A DNA stretch of 39,954 nucleotides. It comes from a virus (Duplodnaviria > Heunggongvirae > Uroviricota > Caudoviricetes). The notes under the pieces were generated by a model that saw nothing but the letters and a program-made list of their open reading frames with translations, did no database searches and was not told the origin of the DNA. The stretch lies in IMG/VR virus record IMGVR_UViG_2563366978_000009, positions 1-39,954 of that record. One strand, written 5' to 3'. The translations under genes were made by a program, and so were the position numbers. Positions 6,931 to 36,121 of the stretch are shown in pieces; position 1 is the stretch's first letter; every line of letters begins with the position of its first letter.

Positions 6931-6946
6931 GGCCGCAAGAGCGGCC
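6931..6946. terminator. Hairpin between convergent genes
   Basis: GGCCGC AAGA GCGGCC; shared by the + gene ending at 6923 and the - gene ending at 6946. Confidence 0.45.
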
Positions 6947-7674
6947 TATCGTTTCGCTTTGTGCTCATCCCAGCACGTTTTGCACCATGCCATTAAGCCG
7001 TCCGCATTTTGATTATTAGGGTAAAAGCTGGTTCGTTTTCTGCGGACATTACAAATTGGGCACCACTTCATATGGCGTGTATTCTTTGGGCCATCGAGAC
7101 ACCTTGCACACCACTTAGTCAATCCATCTGGATTTTTTGACGATTTCCTGAATTTTTCATATGGAAGGTTTATTCTGCATCGCAAGCACTGCTTGCTACC
7201 ACTTGAAACTCTGTTAGCTGATTCTTCTTTTGGCGGCGATACAGAAGGTATTCTTGCTGGCTCTGATACTGCCTGAGGTGCTTTTTTAGATGACTGAGAC
7301 GATATGTCACCACCAGGGAATCTTCCATGATATGCCGGACGCGTTGACACTCCAGGTGGAAGCTCAGCTGTAAACGGCTTTGACTGAATCAGTTGCCTCT
7401 CTTTTGCTAACTCCTGCTGTTTATAATATGTCTGGATTACCGCACTATCATAAGCAGGAGGTGCGGAAATATTAGGCGCATTACCTCCAGTTTTTTGAAA
7501 CTGAGTAGAGGTGTGTTCTATCACCTGTGTACGATTAATCGTTATCTCCCCATCTTCGGTCTTTATCGTTTTGTTATGATTAACGACCGTACGATCAGAG
7601 ATCTTAGTCTTGTTCTGGTTGATAACGTAAATAATCACCGCAACCACACCAACAACTATCCAGAAAACTTCCAT
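6946..7674 (-). CDS. Membrane-anchored protein with Pro/Ser-rich linker and C-terminal triple zinc-ribbon-like repeats
   Basis: N-terminal TM (MEVFWIVVGVVAVIIYVI); C-terminus has CLRC, DGLTKWCARC, KWCPIC, DGLMAWCKTC. No family recognised. Confidence 0.6.
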   Translation of the reverse strand: MEVFWIVVGVVAVIIYVINQNKTKISDRTVVNHNKTIKTEDGEITINRTQVIEHTSTQFQKTGGNAPNISAPPAYDSAVIQTYYKQQELAKERQLIQSKPFTAELPPGVSTRPAYHGRFPGGDISSQSSKKAPQAVSEPARIPSVSPPKEESANRVSSGSKQCLRCRINLPYEKFRKSSKNPDGLTKWCARCLDGPKNTRHMKWCPICNVRRKRTSFYPNNQNADGLMAWCKTCWDEHKAKR

Positions 7675-7694
7675 TTCTTTTCCTCACAATAACA

Positions 7695-7709
7695 TTACCT
7701 TAAAGGTAA
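7695..7709. promoter_or_regulatory. Operator palindrome TTACC-N5-GGTAA (perfect)
   Basis: TTACCTTAAAGGTAA, followed by a degenerate copy cTTGCTTTCAGGTGA at 7713..7727. Confidence 0.55.
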
Positions 7710-7787
7710 TATCTTGCTTTCAGGTGATCAAGCGTTAAACCCAATAAACCAAATACGGTTGATTTTAATATTTCTTCGCGTTTATAA

Positions 7788-7802: not shown

Positions 7803-7892
7803 ATTTACATCGCACTCCTCTTGTGCCATAGTAATCGGGCACTGGCAAAATCCAGTGCCGGGATTGGTCTCCCGGATTACTAAGTGGCGCAT

Positions 7893-7915
7893 ACCACGCC
7901 AGACGTGGTTTTTTT
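7893..7915 (+). terminator. Intrinsic terminator or attenuator inside the long leader of the AntA-type gene
   Basis: ACCACG CCAGA CGTGGT followed by seven T, preceded by another 8-bp hairpin at 7837..7860, about 160 nt upstream of the ATG at 8074. Confidence 0.5.
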
Positions 7916-8073
7916 ATGCGTATAGCACAGTCATGCCAGAATTATGGTGGGCTGAATGGGGGTCCGAAAGGACGCCGGTACCACTTAGGCCGGTAAGACC
8001 AACTCCGTTCAGTTCACCACCATCTGATTGGTCTCAGCGGTGGTGATGTAATTCGCTAAGTGGAGACGCCATC

Positions 8074-8730
8074 ATGAACGCTCAACTCATCCCCGTATTC
8101 AACGGCACTATATCTAACGAAACAGCCCTACTTTGTAATGCCCGCGATCTGCACGCTTTTTTAGGTGTTAAAAAGGTGTTTGCAGCATGGATTACAAATC
8201 GCATATCAGAATACGAATTCATTGAAAATCAAGACTATATTTTGCTTTCCAATTTGGGAAAGCAAACATCTGGTAGAGGCGGCCACAACCGCAAAGAGTA
8301 CCACCTCACCCTTGATACAGCCAAAGAGCTGGCGATGGTCGAGCGTAACGAAAAAGGTCGCCAGGTGCGACGCTACTTCATTGAATGCGAGAAACGTTTA
8401 AGACAACAAGAAACAAAAGTGGAGAAGGTCTTGTCAGGCTTCATGCCCGCCATTATGGAGGCGATCAAGCTGGAAGACAAAAAAGAATACAGCGCCCCAC
8501 TGAAGCCCGGCTACCGCAGTCTGATTCATTCTCCGTCTGGTGTTCTCGGCCTGACGGAGAACTCACTGCTGATGAATCTGCTGAACCAGTTACAGGACGA
8601 CGGGCACGACGTATCGGGCGCGGCGGCGGAGCTGACCACCATGTTCTGCTACATCGTCGGTGTGAGCAAATGCCTGCGTGATATCCAGACCCACGCGGAG
8701 TACATCAACGACAAGGCAGGGTTCTTCTGA
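8074..8730 (+). CDS. Antirepressor, AntA-type N-terminal domain
   Basis: 218 aa; N-terminal block LH.FLGV..F..W...R...YEF.E..DY...LT.D.AKELAM.ERNEKG...R.YFIECE as recalled for AntA/AntB; GGAG RBS; C-terminal domain paralogous to 6666..6923. Confidence 0.65.
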
Positions 8731-8876: not shown

Positions 8877-9056
8877 ATGCGAAACGAAAAATTGCAGATG
8901 CGTAGAGCGCAAGCTGCCGCAAGACGTTCTTTCAATGGAAGCGTAGAGTACGTAAAAGTTACTATGACAAAAGATCACGCAAGTCGCGTATCCCGCGCTT
9001 TCTTTGATTCTCGTAACAATAAGGAAAATTATGAGTTCGTCTGCGTCGCAGAATGA
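8877..9056 (+). CDS. Small basic ORF (59 aa) overlapping the YafO-like gene start; candidate antitoxin
   Basis: GAGG RBS 7 nt upstream; below the 60-aa track cutoff; 26-nt overlap with the next gene in another frame. No family recognised. Confidence 0.3.
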   Translation: MRNEKLQMRRAQAAARRSFNGSVEYVKVTMTKDHASRVSRAFFDSRNNKENYEFVCVAE

Positions 9057-9576
9057 TAAAAATCAAATTGTCAGATATAAGGGTCGAGTGTTGCATACGC
9101 AAAATTTCTCGGCCCTTTGTGCATCTGATCTTGAGCTGAAGAAAGTATCTGATGCCTTTACCCAGTATTGGAAAACGGGATACCATCCATCTCTTGGTAA
9201 AGATGCTGCATTTGCTCGTCCGACAGAAATGCTTAAACTAAATGTCAGGCATACTCATGTCGATAACCAAGACTATATTCCAGAAGATAGTGATAAAAAA
9301 CACACTGGTAAAAAATCATCTTGGGATGCATGGAAAAATATAGCGTCTGTACAAGTAAAATGCATACCAACAAGTGATTGCTTTTTAGTTTATTCGGTAA
9401 ATCACAATCGTGATGCGCTGGTTATGTTTTTTGTTGACGCAGATGCTCACAACATAACTGAGCAAGAAGAGTTTAAAGAGGAAGCAATCACTATCAGTTA
9501 TCAATTCTTTGAGAAAACAAAAACAGAACCAATGCCTTTAGAAGAAGATCTTTTTTCTGATAAATGGAAGGAATAG
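9031..9576 (+). CDS. YafO-family toxin-like protein
   Basis: ATG at 9031 with AAGGA RBS (track ORF starts at an upstream TTG). Blocks SDAFTQYWKTG, LGKDAAFA, VRHTHVDNQDYIP, CFLVYSVNHNRDALVMFFVDA parallel YafO as recalled (FISYKRDG, FGRDALY, VAHIHLANENNPFP, AHLVYCQGAFDEQAWLLIAIL). Low GC. Confidence 0.5.
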   Translation: MSSSASQNDKNQIVRYKGRVLHTQNFSALCASDLELKKVSDAFTQYWKTGYHPSLGKDAAFARPTEMLKLNVRHTHVDNQDYIPEDSDKKHTGKKSSWDAWKNIASVQVKCIPTSDCFLVYSVNHNRDALVMFFVDADAHNITEQEEFKEEAITISYQFFEKTKTEPMPLEEDLFSDKWKE

Positions 9577-9859: not shown

Positions 9860-10711
9860 TCACTGTGCAGTTTTCGCTGATCGATTTTCAGCTCTAAATT
9901 CAAGAACCGTTTCAATATTTCTTTCCTTCAGCATATCAATAACATTTTTATTCATTTGACTATCACTGGTTAATAACTGGTAAACGTCGCTTCTCTCTTT
10001 ATCAGAGTTTTCTTTAACAGCTGCTTTGCATGCCAAATGCTTATTGAAATTTTCTACATCGCTAGTACAGGAATTTACGGCTGCTGATGAAATATCAGAC
10101 GCTGAAGAAACACCATCATCCAAACGTTTTATAGCATTTTCTATACATGAGTTAAGGGAATAAACGACAACTGAGCGATACCCTTCAGACGCACACCATT
10201 CTAAATTTCTTGAAGGATCGAGTGGTTTTACTTCGCTGGATTGAATTAACTTGTCAAAAACTGACTTATATTCAATCTGTTTTTTATCTATAGCCCATAC
10301 TTCAGTAGCTGATTTATAATTCCCCGTATGCCTATTAACATCAAATCCATGTTTTATAAGCAAATCTGCCCATGAAAGATTTATTGATTCATTGTTATGA
10401 GGCCATTTTCCTGTCAGAACCGCCCCCATAGACCCCATATATCCGCCATATGATGGTATAGCACCATGGCTCAGTAACTTCTCAGCAACCACAGGGCAAT
10501 TAATTACATAAGAGGCGTAAAGCCCATTCCATAAAGCCCCTCTATAGTAATCGCCACGATTAGGTTCTTTTAAGTCGATAGCCTTTGATAATTGTTCACA
10601 CGTTTTGCATGCATCAAAGTTATCCTTATTGCATTGCAATGAACTGGCAGCTGTAGGATTTACAGAGACTATTGAAAGCACTATGCCAAAAAACAAATTT
10701 ATTTTTTTCAT
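9860..10711 (-). CDS. Secreted protein with possible ankyrin-like repeats; last gene of the virion operon
   Basis: Start 2 nt after the gp16-like stop; signal peptide MKKINLFFGIVLSIVSVNPTAAS; segments VVAEKLLSHGAIP and ADLLIKHGFDVNRHTGNYKSAT resemble ankyrin repeats (tentative); low GC. Confidence 0.6.
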   Translation of the reverse strand: MKKINLFFGIVLSIVSVNPTAASSLQCNKDNFDACKTCEQLSKAIDLKEPNRGDYYRGALWNGLYASYVINCPVVAEKLLSHGAIPSYGGYMGSMGAVLTGKWPHNNESINLSWADLLIKHGFDVNRHTGNYKSATEVWAIDKKQIEYKSVFDKLIQSSEVKPLDPSRNLEWCASEGYRSVVVYSLNSCIENAIKRLDDGVSSASDISSAAVNSCTSDVENFNKHLACKAAVKENSDKERSDVYQLLTSDSQMNKNVIDMLKERNIETVLEFRAENRSAKTAQ

Positions 10712-23860: not shown

Positions 23861-24153
23861 TCCTGTTCACTGGCCTCTTTGGCCATCTTCAAATACTGTT
23901 CAGGGCAATGCGCCATAACGCGCTGAAACAGTTCCAGCGCCAGATTGCGTTGCCCCTCATTAAATGCCATTGCCATAGCATCCATCGGAGAGATAGCGGA
24001 AAACACCCGGCCTTTCTCCAGCACAGACCAGACAACGCGACGCCCCTGTTCACTGCTCATGACAAAGCGAATGTCATCAATTTCACGCTGTGCCATGTCA
24101 CGTTGCTTACGGGCGTTTTCTTCTTTCAGTTGATCGTCTTCGTAATCTGTCAT
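23857..24153 (-). CDS. Hypothetical small acidic head-assembly protein
   Basis: 98 aa; ATGA-type overlaps with the portal stop and scaffold start. Confidence 0.45.
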   Translation of the reverse strand: MTDYEDDQLKEENARKQRDMAQREIDDIRFVMSSEQGRRVVWSVLEKGRVFSAISPMDAMAMAFNEGQRNLALELFQRVMAHCPEQYLKMAKEASEQE

Positions 24154-25829
24154 TGTGATTGCCCACCCTGACCACTAACTGCATTCGCCATAGCTGACAA
24201 AACACTCGGATCCGAAGTTTTAGCTTCGCTTAGCGTCTTGGCACCCTGTGCCGCCGCCATCCCCATCTCCATCATTTGTTGCTGCTGTTGTTGCTGTGCC
24301 CGTTGCTGGCGAGCCTGCTCAACCTGTTCCTGCGGAACAATGACGGTTGGAGACACTCCGGACATATCAGCGAATGCATCGATCGCCTGATCAACGTTGA
24401 GTTTGTCGAGAGCTTCTGGTTTCGCTTGCGCAAGTTGACCAATGAAGTTGACCGTAGACGCCAGACTGGACAGGCCGATAGACTTCTGCGCCTGAGCCAT
24501 GACGGAAATGTATTCGACCTTCAGGGGCATACCTTCCATCGCGTCAGGCGGTGGCGGCAGCATGTTTTTACGCACCATCATCGAGAAAGCGCGGTCAATG
24601 AGAGGATTAAGACATTCGTCGTTCAGACGCTCCAGAACCGGCCCCAACATCAGAAGTTTTTCTTCTTTCATTTCGATCACCGCTTCAACAGGCATCGAGC
24701 GGGTATTGATGTTCTGCAACATCATGAACAGATCGACAAAGTAGGCGCTGTTAATGATTTGACGAGTGTCCTGAATGTCTGCCACCAAATCTGCTGTACT
24801 GGGGTTAACCAGATAAGCAGGCCTGAAGCCATCCTGACCAGTAATCTGATCGATATACGTGATGTCGCCAGGAAGAAGGGAGGCGCGCTGATTCTTGAGG
24901 GAAGTCGGAGCAACCATCGGCGGATTGGTGGCTTTATCAATCAACTGCGACTTGCGCTTCTGGAGAAGCTGCAATGCCTTAACAGGTCCAAGCGCCAGCA
25001 TACCCGGGCATGATGATCCATAAACATCTTCGCCATTAACTTCCCAGCGCGGAGCCATAATTGGAAACTCATCGAATCCGGACTCACGCAACAACTTGTC
25101 GTTATCTCCACCAACCTCGTAATAAACCGATTTGAATGGCTTGTTCTTGCTATCCAGCTTCGATGTATCGCGGTCAATGTTCGGGTAAACCGAATGCATC
25201 ACTTCAATCCACTTCTCGTAGGTGCCGCTTTCCCACATGCTTTTTACGGATTCGCTGACGTTATTTAGCCCGAACTCCTGAACAAGCTGACGAACAGTCA
25301 TAGAGAACTTGCGAAAACAGGTGTCAACACTGCCACGAGGTGAGTTAGCCAGGTAGTAACTGCCTATCGGGAATGGCATTGTGCGAATGATGTCCTCGTC
25401 ATCCTCCAGCACTGCCATTGCACCAGTGCTGTATGTGCCGAGGCTTCCGTATAACTGCGGAAGAGACTGGTAGAGATTCGACTTATTGAACATATCGTTC
25501 ATGCGGTTCTGAACTGCCTCAAGCCACAACTTAACAGGGCCATAATCCATCATTTCAGGATCTGGCGTAGCCAGGCGAAACCACGGACGCGCGGGGCTTG
25601 TGATGCCTGACATCATGCCGCTGGCGAGAGTGCGCGCCGCCATAGTCCCGGTCGAATCAATAATGCGTGTATTGCGCCGATCGTTACGGTTGACCTCAGA
25701 AGTCAGAAAGCGGGAACCACGCGGGTTGATGTAATCACTCAACTCGCGCCAGTGCGGCTCGAACGACTGACGCTCGCTTTCAAGTTGTGCGAACTGTTTG
25801 TTCAATCGCTCTTTAGTTGTTTCCGCCAT
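24150..25829 (-). CDS. Portal protein, T7 gp8-like
   Basis: 559 aa, downstream of the large terminase; Gln-rich C-terminus (QARQQRAQQQQQQQMMEMGMAAAQGAK) resembles the gp8 C-terminus as recalled. Confidence 0.7.
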   Translation of the reverse strand: MAETTKERLNKQFAQLESERQSFEPHWRELSDYINPRGSRFLTSEVNRNDRRNTRIIDSTGTMAARTLASGMMSGITSPARPWFRLATPDPEMMDYGPVKLWLEAVQNRMNDMFNKSNLYQSLPQLYGSLGTYSTGAMAVLEDDEDIIRTMPFPIGSYYLANSPRGSVDTCFRKFSMTVRQLVQEFGLNNVSESVKSMWESGTYEKWIEVMHSVYPNIDRDTSKLDSKNKPFKSVYYEVGGDNDKLLRESGFDEFPIMAPRWEVNGEDVYGSSCPGMLALGPVKALQLLQKRKSQLIDKATNPPMVAPTSLKNQRASLLPGDITYIDQITGQDGFRPAYLVNPSTADLVADIQDTRQIINSAYFVDLFMMLQNINTRSMPVEAVIEMKEEKLLMLGPVLERLNDECLNPLIDRAFSMMVRKNMLPPPPDAMEGMPLKVEYISVMAQAQKSIGLSSLASTVNFIGQLAQAKPEALDKLNVDQAIDAFADMSGVSPTVIVPQEQVEQARQQRAQQQQQQQMMEMGMAAAQGAKTLSEAKTSDPSVLSAMANAVSGQGGQSQ

Positions 25830-26118: not shown

Positions 26119-26155
26119 TTGACATTTAACGCACAAATTATTACCTTTCAGGTAA
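26119..26155. promoter_or_regulatory. TTGACA -35 element followed by operator palindrome TTACC-N5-GGTAA (perfect, 26141..26155)
   Basis: TTGACA at 26119..26124; TTACCTTTCAGGTAA 17 nt downstream; candidate promoter for the plus-strand tRNA island. No clear -10. Confidence 0.45.
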
Positions 26156-26477: not shown

Positions 26478-26554
26478 GTGGCATTAGCTCAGTTGGACAG
26501 AGCAACCGCCTTCTAAGCGGTTGGTCGCAGGTTCGAATCCTGCATGCCACGCCA
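26478..26554 (+). tRNA. tRNA-Arg (anticodon UCU), phage-encoded
   Basis: Hand-folded cloverleaf: acceptor GUGGCAU/AUGCCAC, D-arm GCUC-AGUUGGACA-GAGC, anticodon stem ACCGC/GCGGU with loop CUUCUAA, T-arm GCAGG-UUCGAAU-CCUGC, discriminator G, encoded CCA. Confidence 0.9.
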
Positions 26555-26597: not shown

Positions 26598-26639
26598 GGC
26601 GGTGATGGTTTCCCTTGAAGGACTATCACCGCCCTTTTT
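26598..26639 (+). terminator. Hairpin plus T-run downstream of the tRNA
   Basis: GGCGGTGAT / ATCACCGCC 9-bp stem, 18-nt loop, then CTTTTT. Confidence 0.45.
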
Positions 26640-26717: not shown

Positions 26718-26741
26718 GCCCGGTTCGCCGGGCATTTTTTT
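26718..26741 (+). terminator. Rho-independent terminator
   Basis: GCCCGG TTCG CCGGGC followed by A and seven T. Confidence 0.7.
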
Positions 26742-26757
26742 GCTTGATGACCGCAAA

Positions 26758-26772
26758 TTACCTTAAAGGTAT
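26758..26772. promoter_or_regulatory. Operator palindrome TTACC-N5-GGTAT (one mismatch) fused to a TATAAT -10
   Basis: TTACCTTAAAGGTATAAT; TATAAT at 26770..26775. Confidence 0.5.
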
Positions 26773-26800
26773 AATCATGAAAAACTTCAAGGTAATTAGC

Positions 26801-27595
26801 ATGTTTGAATCCTTCAAAGAGCTGTTTTTATCTACTGCCAATACTGCCGTGAATCGAGCCAAAAACCCTGTGCTTGGTGCTTTTGTTATGTCCTGGTGCG
26901 CCTTCAACTGGAAATCAATTCTTTATCTATTTTTTAGCAAATCAAACATAATAGATAAAATTTCATATATCTCAGATAACAGCACATGGAAAACTGTTAT
27001 GTTTTATCCATGCTTATCTGTAATTGCTATCTGCTGCCTATTACCATGGGTAAACAATATCATTAACGTATGGCAAGCAAAGCCTCTTGATAATAATGAC
27101 TCAATCGATAATCACCTGAAGGCAAGAAAAATCCAGCGTGAAACCAGACTGCAGAGGTTATTGGCTAAAAAAGATGTTACATACGACAAAGTTAAGACTG
27201 GCGCGGAAAAAGACATCCAAGAGATGAAAGAAGAGATTATTCGATCAAAGAATAGTATGGGGGAATTGACTGCCGAGTTGAAAGCTAAAGATGACGAATT
27301 GAGATCCGCCAGTGCTCAGTTAGCAGCTCTAAATCATTCATTAAAAGAGATATCGGAAACTCTGGGAAGAATGAATGAGGCATATAAGACCCTCCAAAAT
27401 GATTTCGACGAATACAAACTCAAATACCCTGAAAAATCTCAAATAAAAAGTCTTGCACTTGGCAACGGCCAAACAATTAGCAACTTTTTGGAGCAACACA
27501 ACTTATCCGGATTAAAATCTGGTAAGCCAGACGTTTTTAATAACTTTGGTGTTCTATCTGGATTATCAGGTTTCGAGGATAAAAATAAAGACTAA
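26801..27595 (+). CDS. Membrane protein with two N-terminal TM helices and a long C-terminal coiled coil
   Basis: Start at 26801 with AAGG RBS (alternative ATG at 26777 abuts the -10). Low GC; opposite strand to the flanking terminase and portal genes. No family recognised. Confidence 0.6.
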   Translation: MFESFKELFLSTANTAVNRAKNPVLGAFVMSWCAFNWKSILYLFFSKSNIIDKISYISDNSTWKTVMFYPCLSVIAICCLLPWVNNIINVWQAKPLDNNDSIDNHLKARKIQRETRLQRLLAKKDVTYDKVKTGAEKDIQEMKEEIIRSKNSMGELTAELKAKDDELRSASAQLAALNHSLKEISETLGRMNEAYKTLQNDFDEYKLKYPEKSQIKSLALGNGQTISNFLEQHNLSGLKSGKPDVFNNFGVLSGLSGFEDKNKD

Positions 27596-29067
27596 GCATA
27601 TGGATCGTACTCGGTAAGCGCCTTGCCTTGCTGGTTCTGCTGCCCGGGAATTCGCAGACGCTTCGACACAGGGAACGCAAACGTCAGCAGTAGCGCATCG
27701 CCTTTACCAGGAGAACGCCCAAGCCGCTCCTTGATATCTTCCTTCGGTTCGATAACGATTTTACCGTCCACTCGAACTTTGTACTCTGCCGCAGACAGGT
27801 CGTCCGCTGTTTCCTGGTCATCCAGCATGCCGCCCAGCCTCAGCCATGTCTTGCATGAGTTGAACATCTCCCCACGCTTGTTGAGCATCTGCGGGTCAGT
27901 AGACGCGCCACCGAACGGAACAAGTTGCCATGTACGACCCCAGCCATCACCGATTGACTTCAGACCAGTTCCGTAACCGAAGTCGATGAACACTGCGTCA
28001 GCCTGGTACTGGTCTTCAAAGTCAGCGATACGCTTCGCCATAATCAGATCGTCAGTGGTCTTGTTGCCAGTCCACAGCACCTTACTGTGCAGCCCCTGCC
28101 GCAGGTATATCACAGCGTCATCAACGCCTGAGTATGCCGGGTCAACGCCGATTATCACCGGAGCATGTGCAACCTGCGCAGCGGTTACCACCCGTTTCAT
28201 TGCCTCGTCAGTAAGACCGGTAGGGATAAACTGCAATTCAGATGCATCAGGGAATATGCCACGCACACGGATTTTAACGAAGTCGCTGTCTTCCCCGTAG
28301 TCATCAACCCATTTCTGCAACTGCTGTTTGTTGGTACCTTCCACCGTCCGACTGTCAATCTGCGCGGTTTTCCAGCGGTGTTTATACTTGCGGAAACATT
28401 CACGGAAACGTCCGGTATTACGCGTCGGGTTTCCGAACGCCACCCAGATAATCTCAGTGTCTTCGTCAGTTAGTGCACCCTCGGCAACTTCCCACACCAG
28501 ATCCGCAATGTTCGACGCTTCATCGAATACCACGATGATGCGTTTGCGCTCGTTGTGTAGTCCGGCGAATGCCTCAGTGTTGTGCTCAGACCAGGGGATT
28601 GCGTCAGCTCGCCACCGCTTGTCGTGCCCAGGATCATTGCTGTACATAGCGGTAGCGGTACAGGTAAACCAGTCTTTCGTGATAGCAAGGTTCGACCACT
28701 TGATAATTTCCGGCCAGGTCTTCGTTCGTAGCTGGTTGTCGGTGTTGGCGGTCACCACGACCTTACAATCCTCGCAAGTGGACATGCCCCAGTTGATCAG
28801 CATTGAGATGAATGCGGATTTACCAATACCGTGACCAGAAGCGCGTGCCAGCATAAGCGGCTGATAGCGCATCTCTGGATTCTGCAGGTGGTCACGTATC
28901 TCTCGGAACGCATCGGCCTGCCACTGACGTGGACCGGTAGCATGTGCCAGTTCAGTCCCCTCTTCCCCCCACGGGAACGCATAGAGGGCATAACCAAGCG
29001 GATCGTGAGTAAACCCTGCAATATCCTCGATCAACTGCTCTTCAGGAGATAACACTGTATCTGTCAC
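27592..29067 (-). CDS. Terminase large subunit
   Basis: 491 aa; Walker A-like GHGIGKS; upstream of portal, downstream of the small-subunit gene with a 4-nt overlap. Confidence 0.7.
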   Translation of the reverse strand: MTDTVLSPEEQLIEDIAGFTHDPLGYALYAFPWGEEGTELAHATGPRQWQADAFREIRDHLQNPEMRYQPLMLARASGHGIGKSAFISMLINWGMSTCEDCKVVVTANTDNQLRTKTWPEIIKWSNLAITKDWFTCTATAMYSNDPGHDKRWRADAIPWSEHNTEAFAGLHNERKRIIVVFDEASNIADLVWEVAEGALTDEDTEIIWVAFGNPTRNTGRFRECFRKYKHRWKTAQIDSRTVEGTNKQQLQKWVDDYGEDSDFVKIRVRGIFPDASELQFIPTGLTDEAMKRVVTAAQVAHAPVIIGVDPAYSGVDDAVIYLRQGLHSKVLWTGNKTTDDLIMAKRIADFEDQYQADAVFIDFGYGTGLKSIGDGWGRTWQLVPFGGASTDPQMLNKRGEMFNSCKTWLRLGGMLDDQETADDLSAAEYKVRVDGKIVIEPKEDIKERLGRSPGKGDALLLTFAFPVSKRLRIPGQQNQQGKALTEYDPYA

Positions 29068-29660
29068 TGATTACCATCCTGACGTTCTTTGAGTCGCTTC
29101 CTGGCTGCTGCTATGCGATCAGCAATTGTCACATTCACATTAACATCCAGGCGTTCTTTGAATGCGTTGACGTCGACGTGCTTACCAATCAGTTCGAGGT
29201 TCTTCACCTTGTCAGGCCATTTAATTTTTTTGAGGATTGTCTCTATCGAATCCTCGTTCATGTTCATGATGGTCGATGACAGATCAAAGCCGCTAAGCGT
29301 AGTGCGCCAGATTTTCGGCCACTCGCGGATTGGCTTAAGGCTCCCATCGTCGTTGAGGATGTCGATCACGTCCATCTGGTCGATCTCCACCAGGCGCATG
29401 AGAACGTAATCAGCACTGACGCGCATTCGTTTGTTGCGCTCCTCCATCAACTCGGCAATCCGTTTCTGAATGCGTTCATCGCGCATCATGACACTGGCTT
29501 TAACTGCCGCTGTATTTGGGGAGAATCCTGCGTTAATCGCAGCCTGAGTCTGATTTTCAGGCGTTTTGATGTATGACTGGCAATAAGCCTCCTGCATTGC
29601 TGTTAGTGGCTTAAATTGCGTTGATTTGCGTTTATAGGTTTTAGGTTCAGCAGGCATCAT
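29064..29660 (-). CDS. Terminase small subunit
   Basis: Start MMPAEPKTYKRK at 29660 with GGTGG RBS; the longer ORF to 29738 adds a poly-Thr extension; position before terL. Confidence 0.55.
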   Translation of the reverse strand: MMPAEPKTYKRKSTQFKPLTAMQEAYCQSYIKTPENQTQAAINAGFSPNTAAVKASVMMRDERIQKRIAELMEERNKRMRVSADYVLMRLVEIDQMDVIDILNDDGSLKPIREWPKIWRTTLSGFDLSSTIMNMNEDSIETILKKIKWPDKVKNLELIGKHVDVNAFKERLDVNVNVTIADRIAAARKRLKERQDGNQ

Positions 29661-29734
29661 AACCACCGTGGTAATAGTTACCGTTGTGGTAATAGTACCA
29701 TGCAAAATAAAGCCGCCATAGTTGGCGGCAGTAT

Positions 29735-29968
29735 TCAAAGTCCATCAAATTCATCGTAAAAACTCTCGTCAAGATACCCTTCCCATTTACCGCGAATGAA
29801 AATTACATCCTCGCCGCAAGGGTGCTGACTGTCGATAACTATATCCCTCCTGGCGCAACCATACTTATGCATGAGAAATTTAACCTCTTTCGGAAAATTT
29901 GCTGAGTTATCTCTCATATCTTCAAGGTCGTAGCGTATTTTTGGCATAACACCTTCGTGACATGTCAC
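29735..29968 (-). CDS. Hypothetical protein
   Basis: 77 aa ORF coupled between early and terminase genes. Confidence 0.4.
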   Translation of the reverse strand: MTCHEGVMPKIRYDLEDMRDNSANFPKEVKFLMHKYGCARRDIVIDSQHPCGEDVIFIRGKWEGYLDESFYDEFDGL

Positions 29969-35346: not shown

Positions 35347-35361
35347 TCACCTATAAGGTAA
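35347..35361. promoter_or_regulatory. Operator copy 1 of the divergent immunity region (TCACC-N5-GGTAA)
   Basis: TCACCTATAAGGTAA. Confidence 0.55.
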
Positions 35362-35464: not shown

Positions 35465-36049
35465 ATGAAAAGTATCCAGGACGTCCGCAGGCAAAATCTC
35501 AACGACTTGATCGACCGTGAATTCAATGGTGTTCAGACGCGGATGGCAGAAAAACTTGGAACTCAGGCAAATCTGGTAAACCGCTGGGCTCTTGGCAAGA
35601 AGGTTATCGGCGACCAGGTTGCGCGAAAAATTGAAGCTGCCGCCAATAAACCCCGTAACTGGCTTGATATCGATCGCTCGCTTTCTCAGGAAGGTTTTCA
35701 GCCTGTCGGCCCGAGTGATATAGGTCAGCTGGCTGCTCACAACCTGGAACGCTGGATGAGCGAAAGCCGCGACCTTTCAACGCAGGGAAAACTACACCGC
35801 GCATCCGGCGTCGCCCAGGTGACAATCAGCCGCCTGTTAAACAATGAGGTCAGCGTTTCCATTTCCACCCTGGAGAATGTTGCATCCGCATTTGGGCGTC
35901 ACGGATATGAATTACTGATTCACCCGCACGACCCCGCGACTATCAACTATGACCGCTCGCGCTACGCATTGTTACCTGAAACAGAGAAGGCAAAGATCGA
36001 AAGTTACATTGAATTTGTCATCAACCAGAACGAAAAAAACAAACAATAA
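35465..36049 (+). CDS. Prophage repressor-like protein with two tandem HTH (XRE-type) domains and no S24 peptidase domain
   Basis: 194 aa; HTH-like segments at about aa 20-45 and 120-150; no Ser/Lys autocleavage domain; operators on both sides. Confidence 0.6.
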   Translation: MKSIQDVRRQNLNDLIDREFNGVQTRMAEKLGTQANLVNRWALGKKVIGDQVARKIEAAANKPRNWLDIDRSLSQEGFQPVGPSDIGQLAAHNLERWMSESRDLSTQGKLHRASGVAQVTISRLLNNEVSVSISTLENVASAFGRHGYELLIHPHDPATINYDRSRYALLPETEKAKIESYIEFVINQNEKNKQ

Positions 36050-36106: not shown

Positions 36107-36121
36107 TTACCTAACGGGTAA
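36107..36121. promoter_or_regulatory. Operator palindrome TTACC-N5-GGTAA (perfect), upstream of a -35
   Basis: TTACCTAACGGGTAA. Confidence 0.55.

What the first reader, a model, noticed from the sequence alone, without database searches (positions are those of the whole stretch)
26758..27595. AT-rich membrane coiled-coil protein gene on the opposite strand between terminase and portal, behind an operator-fused promoter
The gene has two N-terminal TM helices and about 170 aa of coiled coil. It has low GC and its own promoter, where the operator is fused to a TATAAT box. It interrupts an otherwise co-linear morphogenesis operon, which marks it as a moron. The architecture is typical of superinfection-exclusion or abortive-infection proteins, but I recognise no family.
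Basis: inference. Interest (0 to 1): 0.6.

Follow-up and report, generated by a model that had tools for sequence, protein, structure and literature searches.

The report
Repressor-wired membrane coiled-coil phage moron
This is a real, self-promoted accessory gene of a phiV10/epsilon15-like E. coli prophage that encodes an inner-membrane hairpin protein with a long cytoplasmic coiled coil; it belongs to a large uncharacterised family that sits in phage "hotspots", its promoter carries the prophage repressor's own operator, and it most likely serves phage-versus-phage competition, although no member has been tested.

Summary
A low-GC (37% against about 50-55%) gene lies on the opposite strand between terminase and portal of a Uetakevirus prophage, behind a promoter whose -10 box overlaps a palindrome.

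Corrections:
- The conserved start is ATG 26801 (264 aa), not 26777.
- TM1 is only marginally hydrophobic.
- Heptad coiled coil covers about 100 aa, not 170.

New findings:
- The palindrome (TTACC-N5-GGTAA) is the dispersed operator of the prophage repressor. There are 10 exact copies, all in regulatory gaps, including both flanks of a repressor gene identical to the tested repressor of phage ZX5.
- The gene is therefore probably repressed in the stable lysogen and switched on with the early genes.
- The protein family has no Pfam, PADLOC or PDB relative. Its N-terminal 160 aa are conserved (78% identity) and its C-terminus is swapped between alleles (16%).
- It recurs as a single-gene cassette in Uetakevirus, lambdoid, P2-like (gpA-gpQ defence hotspot), phage-plasmid and filamentous phage genomes.

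Best reading: a membrane-acting exclusion or abortive-infection protein. This function is inferred, not shown.

The parts
26478..26554 (+). tRNA-Arg (anticodon TCT). It has the same orientation as the moron and marks the left border of the variable slot.
   Evidence: ARAGORN and Rfam tRNA at 73 bits. It is present in all slot variants examined.
26598..26633 (+). First terminator-like hairpin after the tRNA.
   Evidence: 14-bp stem followed by a T run.
26718..26740 (+). Intrinsic terminator, GCCCGGTTCGCCGGGC followed by T7. It insulates the cassette from the tRNA transcript.
   Evidence: It is conserved upstream of every cargo type.
26747..26752 (+). -35 hexamer ATGACC.
   Evidence: It is conserved as ATGACC or GTGACT in other alleles.
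26758..26772 (.). Operator TTACCTTAAAGGTAT, with one mismatch to the core TTACC-N5-GGTAA. It covers about -24 to -10 of the promoter.
   Evidence: TACC-N5-GGTA is kept in 58 of 59 loci in a Uetakevirus context, with a variable N5.
26770..26775 (+). -10 hexamer TATAAT. The predicted transcription start is near 26782.
   Evidence: The start position is inferred from standard sigma-70 geometry.
26789..26793 (+). Shine-Dalgarno-like AAGGT, 7-8 nt before ATG 26801.
   Evidence: Read directly from the sequence.
26801..27595 (+). CDS of 264 aa, a member of phrog_4780. The annotated alternative start at 26777 would give 272 aa.
26870..26935 (+). TM1, residues 24-45. It is kinked at the invariant N36-W37.
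   Evidence: Conservation is shown.
26990..27073 (+). TM2, residues 64-91. It runs on without a break into the cytoplasmic helix.
27074..27280 (+). Conserved juxtamembrane and proximal helix, residues 92-160. It is rich in K and R.
27281..27592 (+). Hypervariable C-terminal module, residues 161-264: heptad coiled coil to about residue 232, then a disordered tail.
26141..26155 (.). Exact operator copy in the divergent gap between the portal operon and the tRNA. A TTGACA -35 hexamer (26119-26124) lies 17 nt upstream on the + strand.
   Evidence: It is conserved in phiV10, BUCT711 and ZX5.
35465..36049 (+). Prophage repressor gene, the proposed trans-acting factor. It is flanked by operator copies at 35347 and 35395 (OR) and at 36107 and 36169 (OL).
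   Evidence: HTH_3 domain. It is 194/194 identical to ZX5 ORF21, which acts as the lysogeny repressor on overexpression (PMC9782041).

Best explanation
The feature is a self-contained accessory cassette: terminator, then promoter with operator, then gene. It sits in a variable slot of a Uetakevirus prophage (the phiV10/epsilon15 group).

The product (shown or predicted):
- It is a 264-aa inner-membrane protein with a two-helix hairpin, N and C termini in the cytoplasm.
- Its second membrane helix runs on as a cytoplasmic stalk of about 140 residues that ends in a heptad coiled coil and a disordered tail.
- The membrane and juxtamembrane part is conserved. The distal coiled-coil module is exchanged between alleles.

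Regulation (inferred from sequence):
- The promoter's -10 box is overlapped by the operator of the prophage's own repressor.
- The gene is therefore predicted to be off or low in the stable lysogen.
- It should come on together with the early genes, on infection, on induction, or whenever the repressor is inactivated by an antirepressor.

Function (inferred, untested):
- The protein acts at the inner membrane in competition between phages.
- It would either block DNA entry or development of a second phage (superinfection exclusion), or kill or arrest the cell (abortive infection).
- The conserved membrane hairpin would be the effector or anchor, and the variable cytoplasmic module would give specificity.
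For: Anatomy:
- Gene, promoter, terminators and tRNA.
- Low GC.
- Start at 26801.
- AlphaFold2 model with mean pLDDT 86.8 and a single helix over residues 63-208.
- Positive-inside statistics over 125 members: N-tail net +1.1, loop net -0.9, post-TM2 net +2.0.
- Heptad periodicity for residues 134-232.

Moron status:
- The same slot holds eight different single-gene cargos in related prophages and phages.
- Family alleles always bring the promoter and palindrome. Non-family cargos (Gp49/Sf6 gp66 PF13876, a 139-aa and a 61-aa protein) have neither.

Operator:
- The window has 10 exact TTACC-N5-GGTAA copies. My own arithmetic puts about 0.04 expected by chance; this figure was not computed by a tool.
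- At least 7 of the 10 are non-coding under a deliberately generous ORF map with 94% coding (P = 3.6e-7).
- Copies flank the repressor gene at OR and OL and precede the ant, nin-like, terS and portal units.
- The same layout is present in Klebsiella phage BUCT711, whose repressor is 45% identical, and in ZX5.
- The window repressor is identical to the experimentally supported ZX5 repressor.
- The half-sites are kept while the N5 spacer varies in 58 of 59 Uetakevirus loci. The left half decays in 4 of 12 non-Uetakevirus contexts, several of which retain a terL 3' remnant.

Conflict role:
- The N-terminus averages 78% identity and the C-terminus 16%. There are 165 pairs with N above 85% and C below 30%. 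The window allele against the L017 allele gives 93% and 27%.
- Relatives sit as lone genes, antisense to both neighbours in most of the loci sampled (not in the P2-like or filamentous-phage loci): in a Klebsiella lambdoid nin region; in phage-plasmids between ParA and the tail fibre, with three alleles; in a filamentous Vibrio phage; and in the P2 gpA-gpQ locus.
- Rousset et al. 2022 show that the P2 gpA-gpQ locus is a defence hotspot holding old and tin (PMC9122126).
Against: - No member of the family has any experimental phenotype.
- PADLOC, Pfam, NCBIfam, PDB sequence and fold searches give only coiled-coil noise.
- A gene repressed in the lysogen cannot protect a resting lysogen. This is unlike the classical prophage exclusion genes (rex, sieA/B, old, tin).
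- Repression is itself inferred from operator position. No binding or expression data exist.
- The operator here has one mismatch to the core, so repression could be leaky.
- A variable C-terminus could also mean relaxed constraint on a spacer.
- The hotspot argument rests on two remote homologues (E about 1e-18 to 1e-20 over the N-terminal domain).
Confidence: 0.45

Rival explanations
1. It is an early lytic helper for the phage's own cycle. In this reading, a membrane protein made on infection or induction remodels or protects the host envelope. Possible roles are inhibition of cell division, control of lysis timing, neutralisation of a host membrane abortive-infection effector (as T4 rII does against Rex), or tethering of replication to the membrane (as phi29 p16.7 does).
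For: - The promoter is wired like the early promoters PL, PR and Pant, with the same operator over the -10 box or the transcription start.
- The gene is kept in plaque-forming phages BUCT711 and EC.W1-9.
- The C-terminal coiled coil is predicted to be cytoplasmic.
Against: - It is dispensable. Most related phages, including phiV10 and ZX5, carry unrelated small cargos in the slot.
- The phage has its own holins, endolysin and DUF2514 spanin.
- The family also occurs in a non-lytic filamentous phage and in the P2 defence hotspot.
- Allelic swapping of the C-terminus fits an arms race better than a housekeeping role.
Confidence: 0.25
2. It is a classical lysogenic-conversion moron, expressed constitutively from the prophage. 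In this reading the palindrome at this promoter is not, or only weakly, bound, and the protein changes a host envelope property or excludes phages in the resting lysogen.
For: - The promoter is strong (10 of 12 consensus positions, perfect TATAAT).
- The operator has one mismatch to the core and no conserved partner site for cooperative binding.
- In Klebsiella lambdoid prophages the cassette works without any other copy of the operator nearby.
Against: - The half-sites are conserved across very divergent alleles while the spacer varies, and they decay outside Uetakevirus backgrounds. This argues for selection to keep repressor binding.
- The operator lies over -24 to -10, a repressing position.
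- ZX5 lysogeny had no measurable effect on host phenotypes (PMC9782041), although ZX5 lacks this gene.
Confidence: 0.15
3. It is a structural, assembly or lysis component of the virion pathway, for example a spanin-like or holin-like protein.
For: - It lies between terminase and portal.
- It has membrane helices and a coiled coil, which resembles an i-spanin.
- This clade has a possible dual start (ATG 26777 and 26801).
Against: - It is on the opposite strand, has low GC and is replaced by other genes in sister phages.
- The upstream ATG is absent in other alleles.
- Its predicted topology puts the coiled coil in the cytoplasm.
- There is no partner o-spanin, and a separate lysis cassette is present.
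- No structural protein matches it.
Confidence: 0.03

Closest known systems
Lambda/P22 SieB (Pfam PF14163), a superinfection-exclusion / abortive-infection protein
   Same: - Both are small phage accessory proteins with two N-terminal membrane helices followed by a basic juxtamembrane stretch and a C-terminal domain that I assume to be cytoplasmic in SieB.
- Lambda sieB is likewise encoded antisense inside an operon (L018 1483-2037, + strand, among - strand PL genes).
   Different: - There is no detectable homology: no PF14163 hit and hhalign probability 0.7%.
- The SieB C-terminal domain is not a long coiled coil.
- SieB acts in the lysogen, whereas this gene carries the immunity operator on its -10 box.
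Cargo of the P2 gpA-gpQ defence hotspot (old, tin and others; Rousset et al. 2022, PMC9122126)
   Same: - Remote family members (P0184, P0199) occupy exactly this locus in P2-like prophages.
- Like that hotspot, the Uetakevirus terL-portal slot holds many alternative single-gene cargos.
   Different: - The window's gene is in a different phage type and a different slot.
- It is not one of the systems validated in that paper.
- Location in a hotspot is association, not function.
PD-Lambda-1-type defence protein: membrane-anchored, central coiled coil (DUF4041) plus a C-terminal nuclease (Vassallo et al. 2022, PMC9519451)
   Same: Both are single-gene, membrane-anchored proteins with a long coiled coil, and both come from E. 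coli mobile elements.
   Different: - The PADLOC hit (E = 0.0013) is confined to the coiled coil.
- There is no DUF4041 and no nuclease or other enzymatic domain.
- The membrane domain here is a conserved 2-TM hairpin of a different family.
phrog_4780 (with phrog_13369 and phrog_35327), phage protein families of unknown function
   Same: - Full-length match to phrog_4780, E = 4e-137.
- The N-terminal domain is shared with phrog_13369 and phrog_35327.
   Different: These families carry no functional annotation, so membership names the protein but does not explain it.
P1 C1-type dispersed operator regulon with a c4/ant immI module
   Same: - One repressor has many operators scattered over the genome.
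- These include one before a C4 antisense RNA and antirepressor unit.
   Different: - The operator here is a symmetric TTACC-N5-GGTAA, not the asymmetric 17-mer of P1 (the P1 operator is quoted from my own knowledge).
- The repressor is an Xre/HTH_3-type protein.

Membership tests
phrog_4780 | Significant full-length match to the family profile. | tested here: met
   E = 4.2e-137, residues 9-272 of the 272-aa form against profile positions 1-267 of 275.
Moron (Hendrix-type accessory cassette) | Present in some and absent from other closely related phages at the same position. | tested here: met
   Of 908 E. coli records with the flanks, only 39 carry this allele. Eight different cargos were seen in the slot.
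Moron (Hendrix-type accessory cassette) | Own promoter and terminator, and base composition unlike the neighbours. | tested here: inconclusive
   - A promoter is predicted and conserved.
- GC is 37% against about 50-55% in the flanks.
- There is a terminator upstream, but none downstream: the stop codon overlaps that of terL.
- No expression data exist.
SieB (PF14163) | Match to the Pfam model or profile-profile similarity. | tested here: not met
   There is no hit at E <= 1 and hhalign probability is 0.7%. Lambda SieB itself scores 1e-29 against PF14163.
SieB (PF14163) | Aborts lytic growth of superinfecting phages in a lysogen. | not testable with these tools
   This needs plating assays.
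Known anti-phage defence systems (PADLOC-DB v2.0.0) | Match to a defence protein model beyond low-complexity or coiled-coil regions. | tested here: not met
   Only coiled-coil segments of DndD, LmuB, JetC and PD-Lambda-1 match, at E >= 3e-5. Among 125 family members there are only LmuB and JetC coil hits.
i-spanin (Rz-like) | A single N-terminal TM, a periplasmic coiled coil, a partner o-spanin, and a position in the lysis cassette. | tested here: not met
   - There are two hydrophobic helices, and charge statistics put the C-terminus in the cytoplasm.
- The gene lies 20 kb or more from the lysis genes.
- The phage has its own DUF2514 spanin-type gene.
Class II holin / pinholin | Small (about 60-110 aa) 2-TM protein in the lysis cassette with a conserved dual start. 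| tested here: not met
   - The protein is 264 aa with a helix of about 140 aa.
- The upstream ATG is not conserved.
- Holins are annotated elsewhere in the equivalent prophage.
Immunity regulon of the Uetakevirus repressor (ZX5 ORF21 type) | An operator copy positioned over the promoter core. | tested here: met
   TTACCTTAAAGGTAT (one mismatch) overlaps the -10 box. It is conserved in 58 of 59 Uetakevirus loci.
Immunity regulon of the Uetakevirus repressor (ZX5 ORF21 type) | The repressor binds the site and lowers transcription. | not testable with these tools
   This needs EMSA or footprinting and a reporter or RNA-seq. No operator mapping was found in PMC9782041.

The most novel reading that the evidence does not exclude
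The family would be a new class of single-protein, membrane-acting anti-phage effectors that temperate phages place under their own immunity repressor. The protein would stay silent in the resting lysogen. It would be released when the repressor is inactivated, by induction or by an antirepressor from a superinfecting or co-resident phage. It would then use its conserved 2-TM hairpin to collapse or seal the inner membrane, while the swappable cytoplasmic coiled-coil module sets which competitor is sensed. That would amount to a repressor-guarded exclusion or abortive switch.
Probability: 0.15. Interest if true: 0.75.

Novelty: new variant of a known kind. Interest (0 to 1): 0.55.

Why it matters
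If the inference is right, three things follow.

1. The terL-portal slot of Uetakeviruses would be a phage hotspot comparable to the P2 gpA-gpQ locus.
2. A large family would join the list of candidate anti-phage or phage-competition genes. At present it has no Pfam entry, although a profile search found 342 cluster representatives at E <= 1e-10 and 2,374 at E <= 1e-3.
3. There would be an example of an accessory gene wired into the immunity circuit rather than expressed from the resting prophage. That changes how such genes should be screened: clones made in a lysogen, or carrying the repressor, would score negative.

The operator map (TTACC-N5-GGTAA at every transcription unit) is also a usable description of the Uetakevirus switch. 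I could not find it in the literature available here.

Tried and rejected
- Pfam, NCBIfam and PADLOC scans of the protein and of 125 diverse relatives gave only coiled-coil noise.
- A PDB sequence profile search matched coiled-coil parts only, none in the membrane domain.
- Foldseek against PDB and BFVD gave nothing below E = 0.9. The afdb50 library was unavailable.
- Homology to lambda SieB is rejected.
- The first AlphaFold2 run, with 63 close homologues, was poor (pLDDT 65.7). The run with 125 diverse sequences was used instead.
- Two scans of genome contigs returned pattern matches, but none was confirmed. I therefore have no species-level census.
- The second word-index protein search listed only close relatives.
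- I considered a host transcription factor for the palindrome (for example NarL 7-2-7, HipB-like or GntR-type sites, recalled from memory). I rejected this on spacing and orientation, and because the sites cluster in the phage's own switch.
- I considered RNA-level hairpins that sequester the SD. I rejected this because the left arm lies upstream of the predicted transcription start.
- Palindromes upstream of family members in phage-plasmid, P2-like and inovirus contexts showed no common operator logic.
- The Klebsiella conjugative-plasmid copies are IS1-truncated remnants.
- Literature searches found no paper on this gene or on Uetakevirus operators.
Full report
**1. What the window is**

The region matches phiV10/epsilon15-like podoviruses (genus Uetakevirus) and many E. 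coli prophages. In an equivalent prophage the order is: integrase, recombination genes, repressor, replication genes, terS, terL, [slot], tRNA-Arg, portal, head and tail genes, antirepressor region, tailspike, lysis genes. In the window the morphogenesis genes are on the - strand. terL is at 27592-29067 and portal at 24150-25829.

**2. The observation**

- Between terL and portal there is a + strand tRNA-Arg(TCT) at 26478-26554.
- Two terminator-like hairpins follow, at 26598-26633 and 26718-26733 plus T7.
- Then comes a sigma-70-like promoter, ATGACC-17-TATAAT at 26747-26775, matching 10 of 12 consensus positions.
- The promoter is followed by a + strand ORF that ends at 27595.
- GC falls to 0.36-0.38 across the ORF, against 0.51-0.56 on either side.
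- The 13-bp palindrome TACCTTAAAGGTA (26759-26771) shares its last two bases with TATAAT.
- With up to 2 mismatches it occurs 14 times in the window against 0.9 expected. No shuffle reached that count.

**3. The start codon**

- TATAAT ends at 26775 and the annotated ATG is at 26777. A transcript from this promoter would start near 26782 and would lack that codon.
- All 62 close homologues aligned begin at the Met that corresponds to ATG 26801.
- phrog_4780 aligns from residue 9 of the long form.
- In four other alleles the 26777 position reads AGA.
- AAGGT at 26789-26793 serves as a ribosome-binding site.
- I therefore take 26801-27595 (264 aa) as the gene.
- The 272-aa form (PGAP; cluster of 228 sequences) could arise only from read-through transcripts.

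**4. The protein**

- Hydropathy gives one clear membrane helix, residues 64-91 (19-residue Kyte-Doolittle maximum 2.15).
- A second helix, residues 24-45, is marginal in this allele (1.23). Across 125 diverse relatives it averages 1.58.
- Over those 125 sequences the N-tail is net +1.1, the 18-residue loop net -0.9, and the 20 residues after TM2 net +2.0. By the positive-inside rule this gives N-in/C-in, with the coiled coil in the cytoplasm.
- AlphaFold2 with the diverse alignment gives mean pLDDT 86.8. The helices are 2-20, 23-35 and 37-45 (kinked at the invariant N36-W37), 50-60, one uninterrupted helix 63-208, then 210-232, followed by a low-confidence tail.
- Heptad periodicity is significant for residues 134-208 (0 of 2000 shuffles) and 161-232. 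It is not significant for 95-160 or 209-264.

**5. Family and known relatives**

- Pfam, NCBIfam and PADLOC give only sub-threshold coiled-coil matches.
- The same holds for 125 relatives and for PDB sequences.
- Foldseek finds nothing in PDB or BFVD.
- The protein belongs to phrog_4780 (E = 4e-137) and shares its N-terminal domain with phrog_13369 and phrog_35327, all of unknown function.
- Every named homologue is 'hypothetical protein'.
- An exhaustive profile search with the N-terminal 163 residues finds 2374 cluster representatives at E <= 1e-3, 342 at <= 1e-10 and 19 at <= 1e-30.
- Nearly invariant residues across the wide family are R19, P23, F28, W32, N36, W37, P70 and P82.

**6. Conserved N-terminus, swapped C-terminus**

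- Among 63 close members the first 160 residues average 78% pairwise identity and the remainder 16%.
- There are 165 pairs that are above 85% identical in the N-terminal part but below 30% in the C-terminal part.
- The window allele and the allele of strain JNE070796 (L017) are 93% identical up to residue 150 and 27% identical beyond it.
- This mosaic points to recombinational exchange of a distal module on a constant membrane module.

**7. The slot is a hotspot**

- 908 E. coli records hold the flanks, but only 39 hold this allele.
- Sampling the slot gave single + strand cargos of 61, 118-123 (PF13876, N4 gp49/Sf6 gp66), 139, 201, 233, 246, 264 and 274 aa (annotated as 282 aa from an upstream ATG).
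- The 201-, 233-, 246-, 264- and 274-aa proteins are all members of this family. Some are only 31-42% identical in the N-terminal domain.
- Each of these has the promoter with the palindrome.
- The unrelated cargos start directly after the tRNA terminator and have neither promoter nor palindrome.

**8. The palindrome is the prophage repressor's operator**

- The core TTACC-N5-GGTAA occurs exactly 10 times in the window, at 7695, 7788, 8802, 26141, 29678, 33002, 33064, 35395, 36107 and 36169.
- Under a deliberately generous ORF map (94% 'coding'), 7 of the 10 are non-coding (P = 3.6e-7).
- The other three lie in ORFs that are spurious or over-extended: one over the isrK/C4 RNAs, one antisense ORF, and the 5' extension of terS.
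- The sites flank the repressor gene (35465-36049).
  - On one side, 35347 and 35395 lie in the divergent gap. The latter overlaps a TAATAT -10 box pointing into the repressor gene.
  - On the other side, 36107 and 36169 bracket a TTGACA...TAATTA promoter that points into the recombination genes.
- Other copies precede the isrK/C4/antirepressor unit, the nin-like genes, terS and the portal unit.
- The repressor has an HTH_3 domain. It is 194/194 identical to ORF21 of phage vB_EcoP_ZX5, which behaves as the lysogeny repressor on overexpression. The BRO-type ORF4 of ZX5 acts as the antirepressor (PMC9782041).
- ZX5 has the same ten sites.
- Klebsiella phage BUCT711, whose repressor is only 45% identical, has ten exact sites, all intergenic, at the equivalent places.
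- I found no published mapping of these operators.

**9. The operator on the moron promoter is under selection**

- In 69 IMG/VR loci that carry a family member, TACC-N5-GGTA lies 42-44 nt before the ATG and overlaps the -10 box in 58 of 59 loci with a Uetakevirus terL or portal.
- The N5 spacer varies (TTAAA, TTAAC, ATAAC, ATATC, TTAGA, CAAAC), while the half-sites are kept.
- Outside Uetakevirus backgrounds it is intact in 8 of 12 loci. Where it has decayed, only the left half has changed (L061 AACC, L062 CACC, L095 CCCC, KO-TP1). The right half is part of the -10 box and is kept.
- Several of these foreign loci retain a fragment of a Uetakevirus-like terL 3' end next to the gene. This suggests the cassette was exported from the Uetakevirus slot.
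- The Klebsiella lambdoid prophage L009 has no other copy of the operator in 12.7 kb that include its own cI/cro region.
- The site covers about -24 to -10, so binding should repress. This last step is inference.

**10. Contexts elsewhere**

Family members occur as follows.
- As the only opposite-strand gene in the nin region of Klebsiella lambdoid phages.
- Between ParA and the tail-fibre genes of phage-plasmids, with three different alleles.
- In the variable region of a filamentous Vibrio phage.
- On Leptospira and Klebsiella plasmids. The Klebsiella conjugative-plasmid copy examined is cut by IS1, and the other listed copies cover only residues 1-95.
- Between gpA and the portal gpQ of P2-like prophages.

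Rousset et al. 2022 show that the gpA-gpQ locus is a defence hotspot holding old, tin and many validated systems (PMC9122126). A 2026 study found that most unannotated cargos they tested from the P4 hotspot are defensive (PMC13586616). This is association only.

**11. Interpretation**

- Shown: gene, composition, slot variability, family, modular conservation, operator enrichment and placement, and identity of the repressor.
- Predicted: promoter, transcription start, topology and fold.
- Inferred: repression in the lysogen, early expression, and a role in phage-phage conflict.
- The closest functional analogue is SieB. It also has 2 TM helices plus a C-terminal domain (cytoplasmic by my assumption) and is antisense in the lambda PL operon. 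Homology is excluded.
- A membrane-anchored coiled-coil defence protein is known (PD-Lambda-1 type), but it carries a nuclease that is absent here.
- The main rival is an early helper for the phage's own lytic cycle. Dispensability, the filamentous-phage and P2-hotspot contexts and the allelic swapping argue against it, but they do not exclude it.

**12. Verdict**

- The finding is real and the moron call is right.
- The exclusion or abortive-infection idea is plausible but untested.
- The most useful new fact is that the 'operator' is the prophage's own immunity operator. This predicts silence in the lysogen and changes how the gene should be tested.
- Novelty: an uncharacterised family within a known kind of element.
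- Interest is moderate (0.55). It would be higher if the repressor-guarded switch were confirmed.

Noticed in passing
window 7695, 7788, 8802, 26141, 29678, 33002, 33064, 35395, 36107, 36169: There is a dispersed operator regulon. Ten exact TTACC-N5-GGTAA palindromes lie in the gaps before essentially every transcription unit. The same set occurs in phages ZX5 and BUCT711. I found no published operator map for Uetakeviruses.
   Followed up: yes
window 7839-8024 and 8074-8730: Rfam isrK (67.7 bits) and C4 antisense RNA (61.2 bits) lie directly upstream of a BRO-N antirepressor. This is a P1/P7-style immI module in a podovirus. It is preceded by a perfect 17-bp operator, ATTACCTTAAAGGTAAT, at 7694-7710.
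   Followed up: partly
window 29064-29738 (- strand): The terS ORF as listed and annotated (224 aa, TTG start) is probably over-extended. Two operator copies (29660, 29678) sit directly upstream of an ATGATG at 29659, and sister prophages annotate a 197-aa terS.
   Followed up: partly
L011, L012, L013, L001 (same slot in other prophages/phages): The non-family cargos are PF13876 N4 gp49/Sf6 gp66-like (118-123 aa), a 139-aa protein and a 61-aa protein. Each starts immediately after the T-run of the tRNA terminator and has no promoter of its own, so it would depend on read-through from the tRNA unit.
   Followed up: partly
window 27592-27595: The stop codon of the moron (27593-27595) overlaps the stop codon of terL (27592-27594) on the other strand. 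No terminator separates the convergent genes, so moron transcripts should run antisense into terL.
   Followed up: no
window 9004-9576 (+) and 9860-10711 (-): Two further accessory genes lie next to the antirepressor. One is a YafO-type toxin homologue (PF13957, E = 9e-6). The other is a low-GC 283-aa protein with a signal-peptide-like N-terminus.
   Followed up: no
window 6946-7674 (- strand): A 242-aa protein has an N-terminal membrane helix and repeated CxxC motifs (weak Stc1 hit). It is transcribed divergently from the antirepressor operon and shares the operator-containing gap. The equivalent region of strain 201609 holds a different gene.
   Followed up: no
L049, L061, L063, L064, L070 (IMG/VR loci): In phages that are not Uetakeviruses, the cassette is followed by a fragment resembling the 3' end of Uetakevirus terL (43-82% identity over 78-139 aa). 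This looks like a scar of transfer out of the terL-portal slot.
   Followed up: partly
NZ_CP079771.1 / NZ_CP079768.1 (41,027-bp 'plasmids' of duck E. coli): These records carry the gene at 100% identity over the N-terminal domain and have the size of the phage genome. They are probably the excised circular prophage recorded as a plasmid.
   Followed up: no
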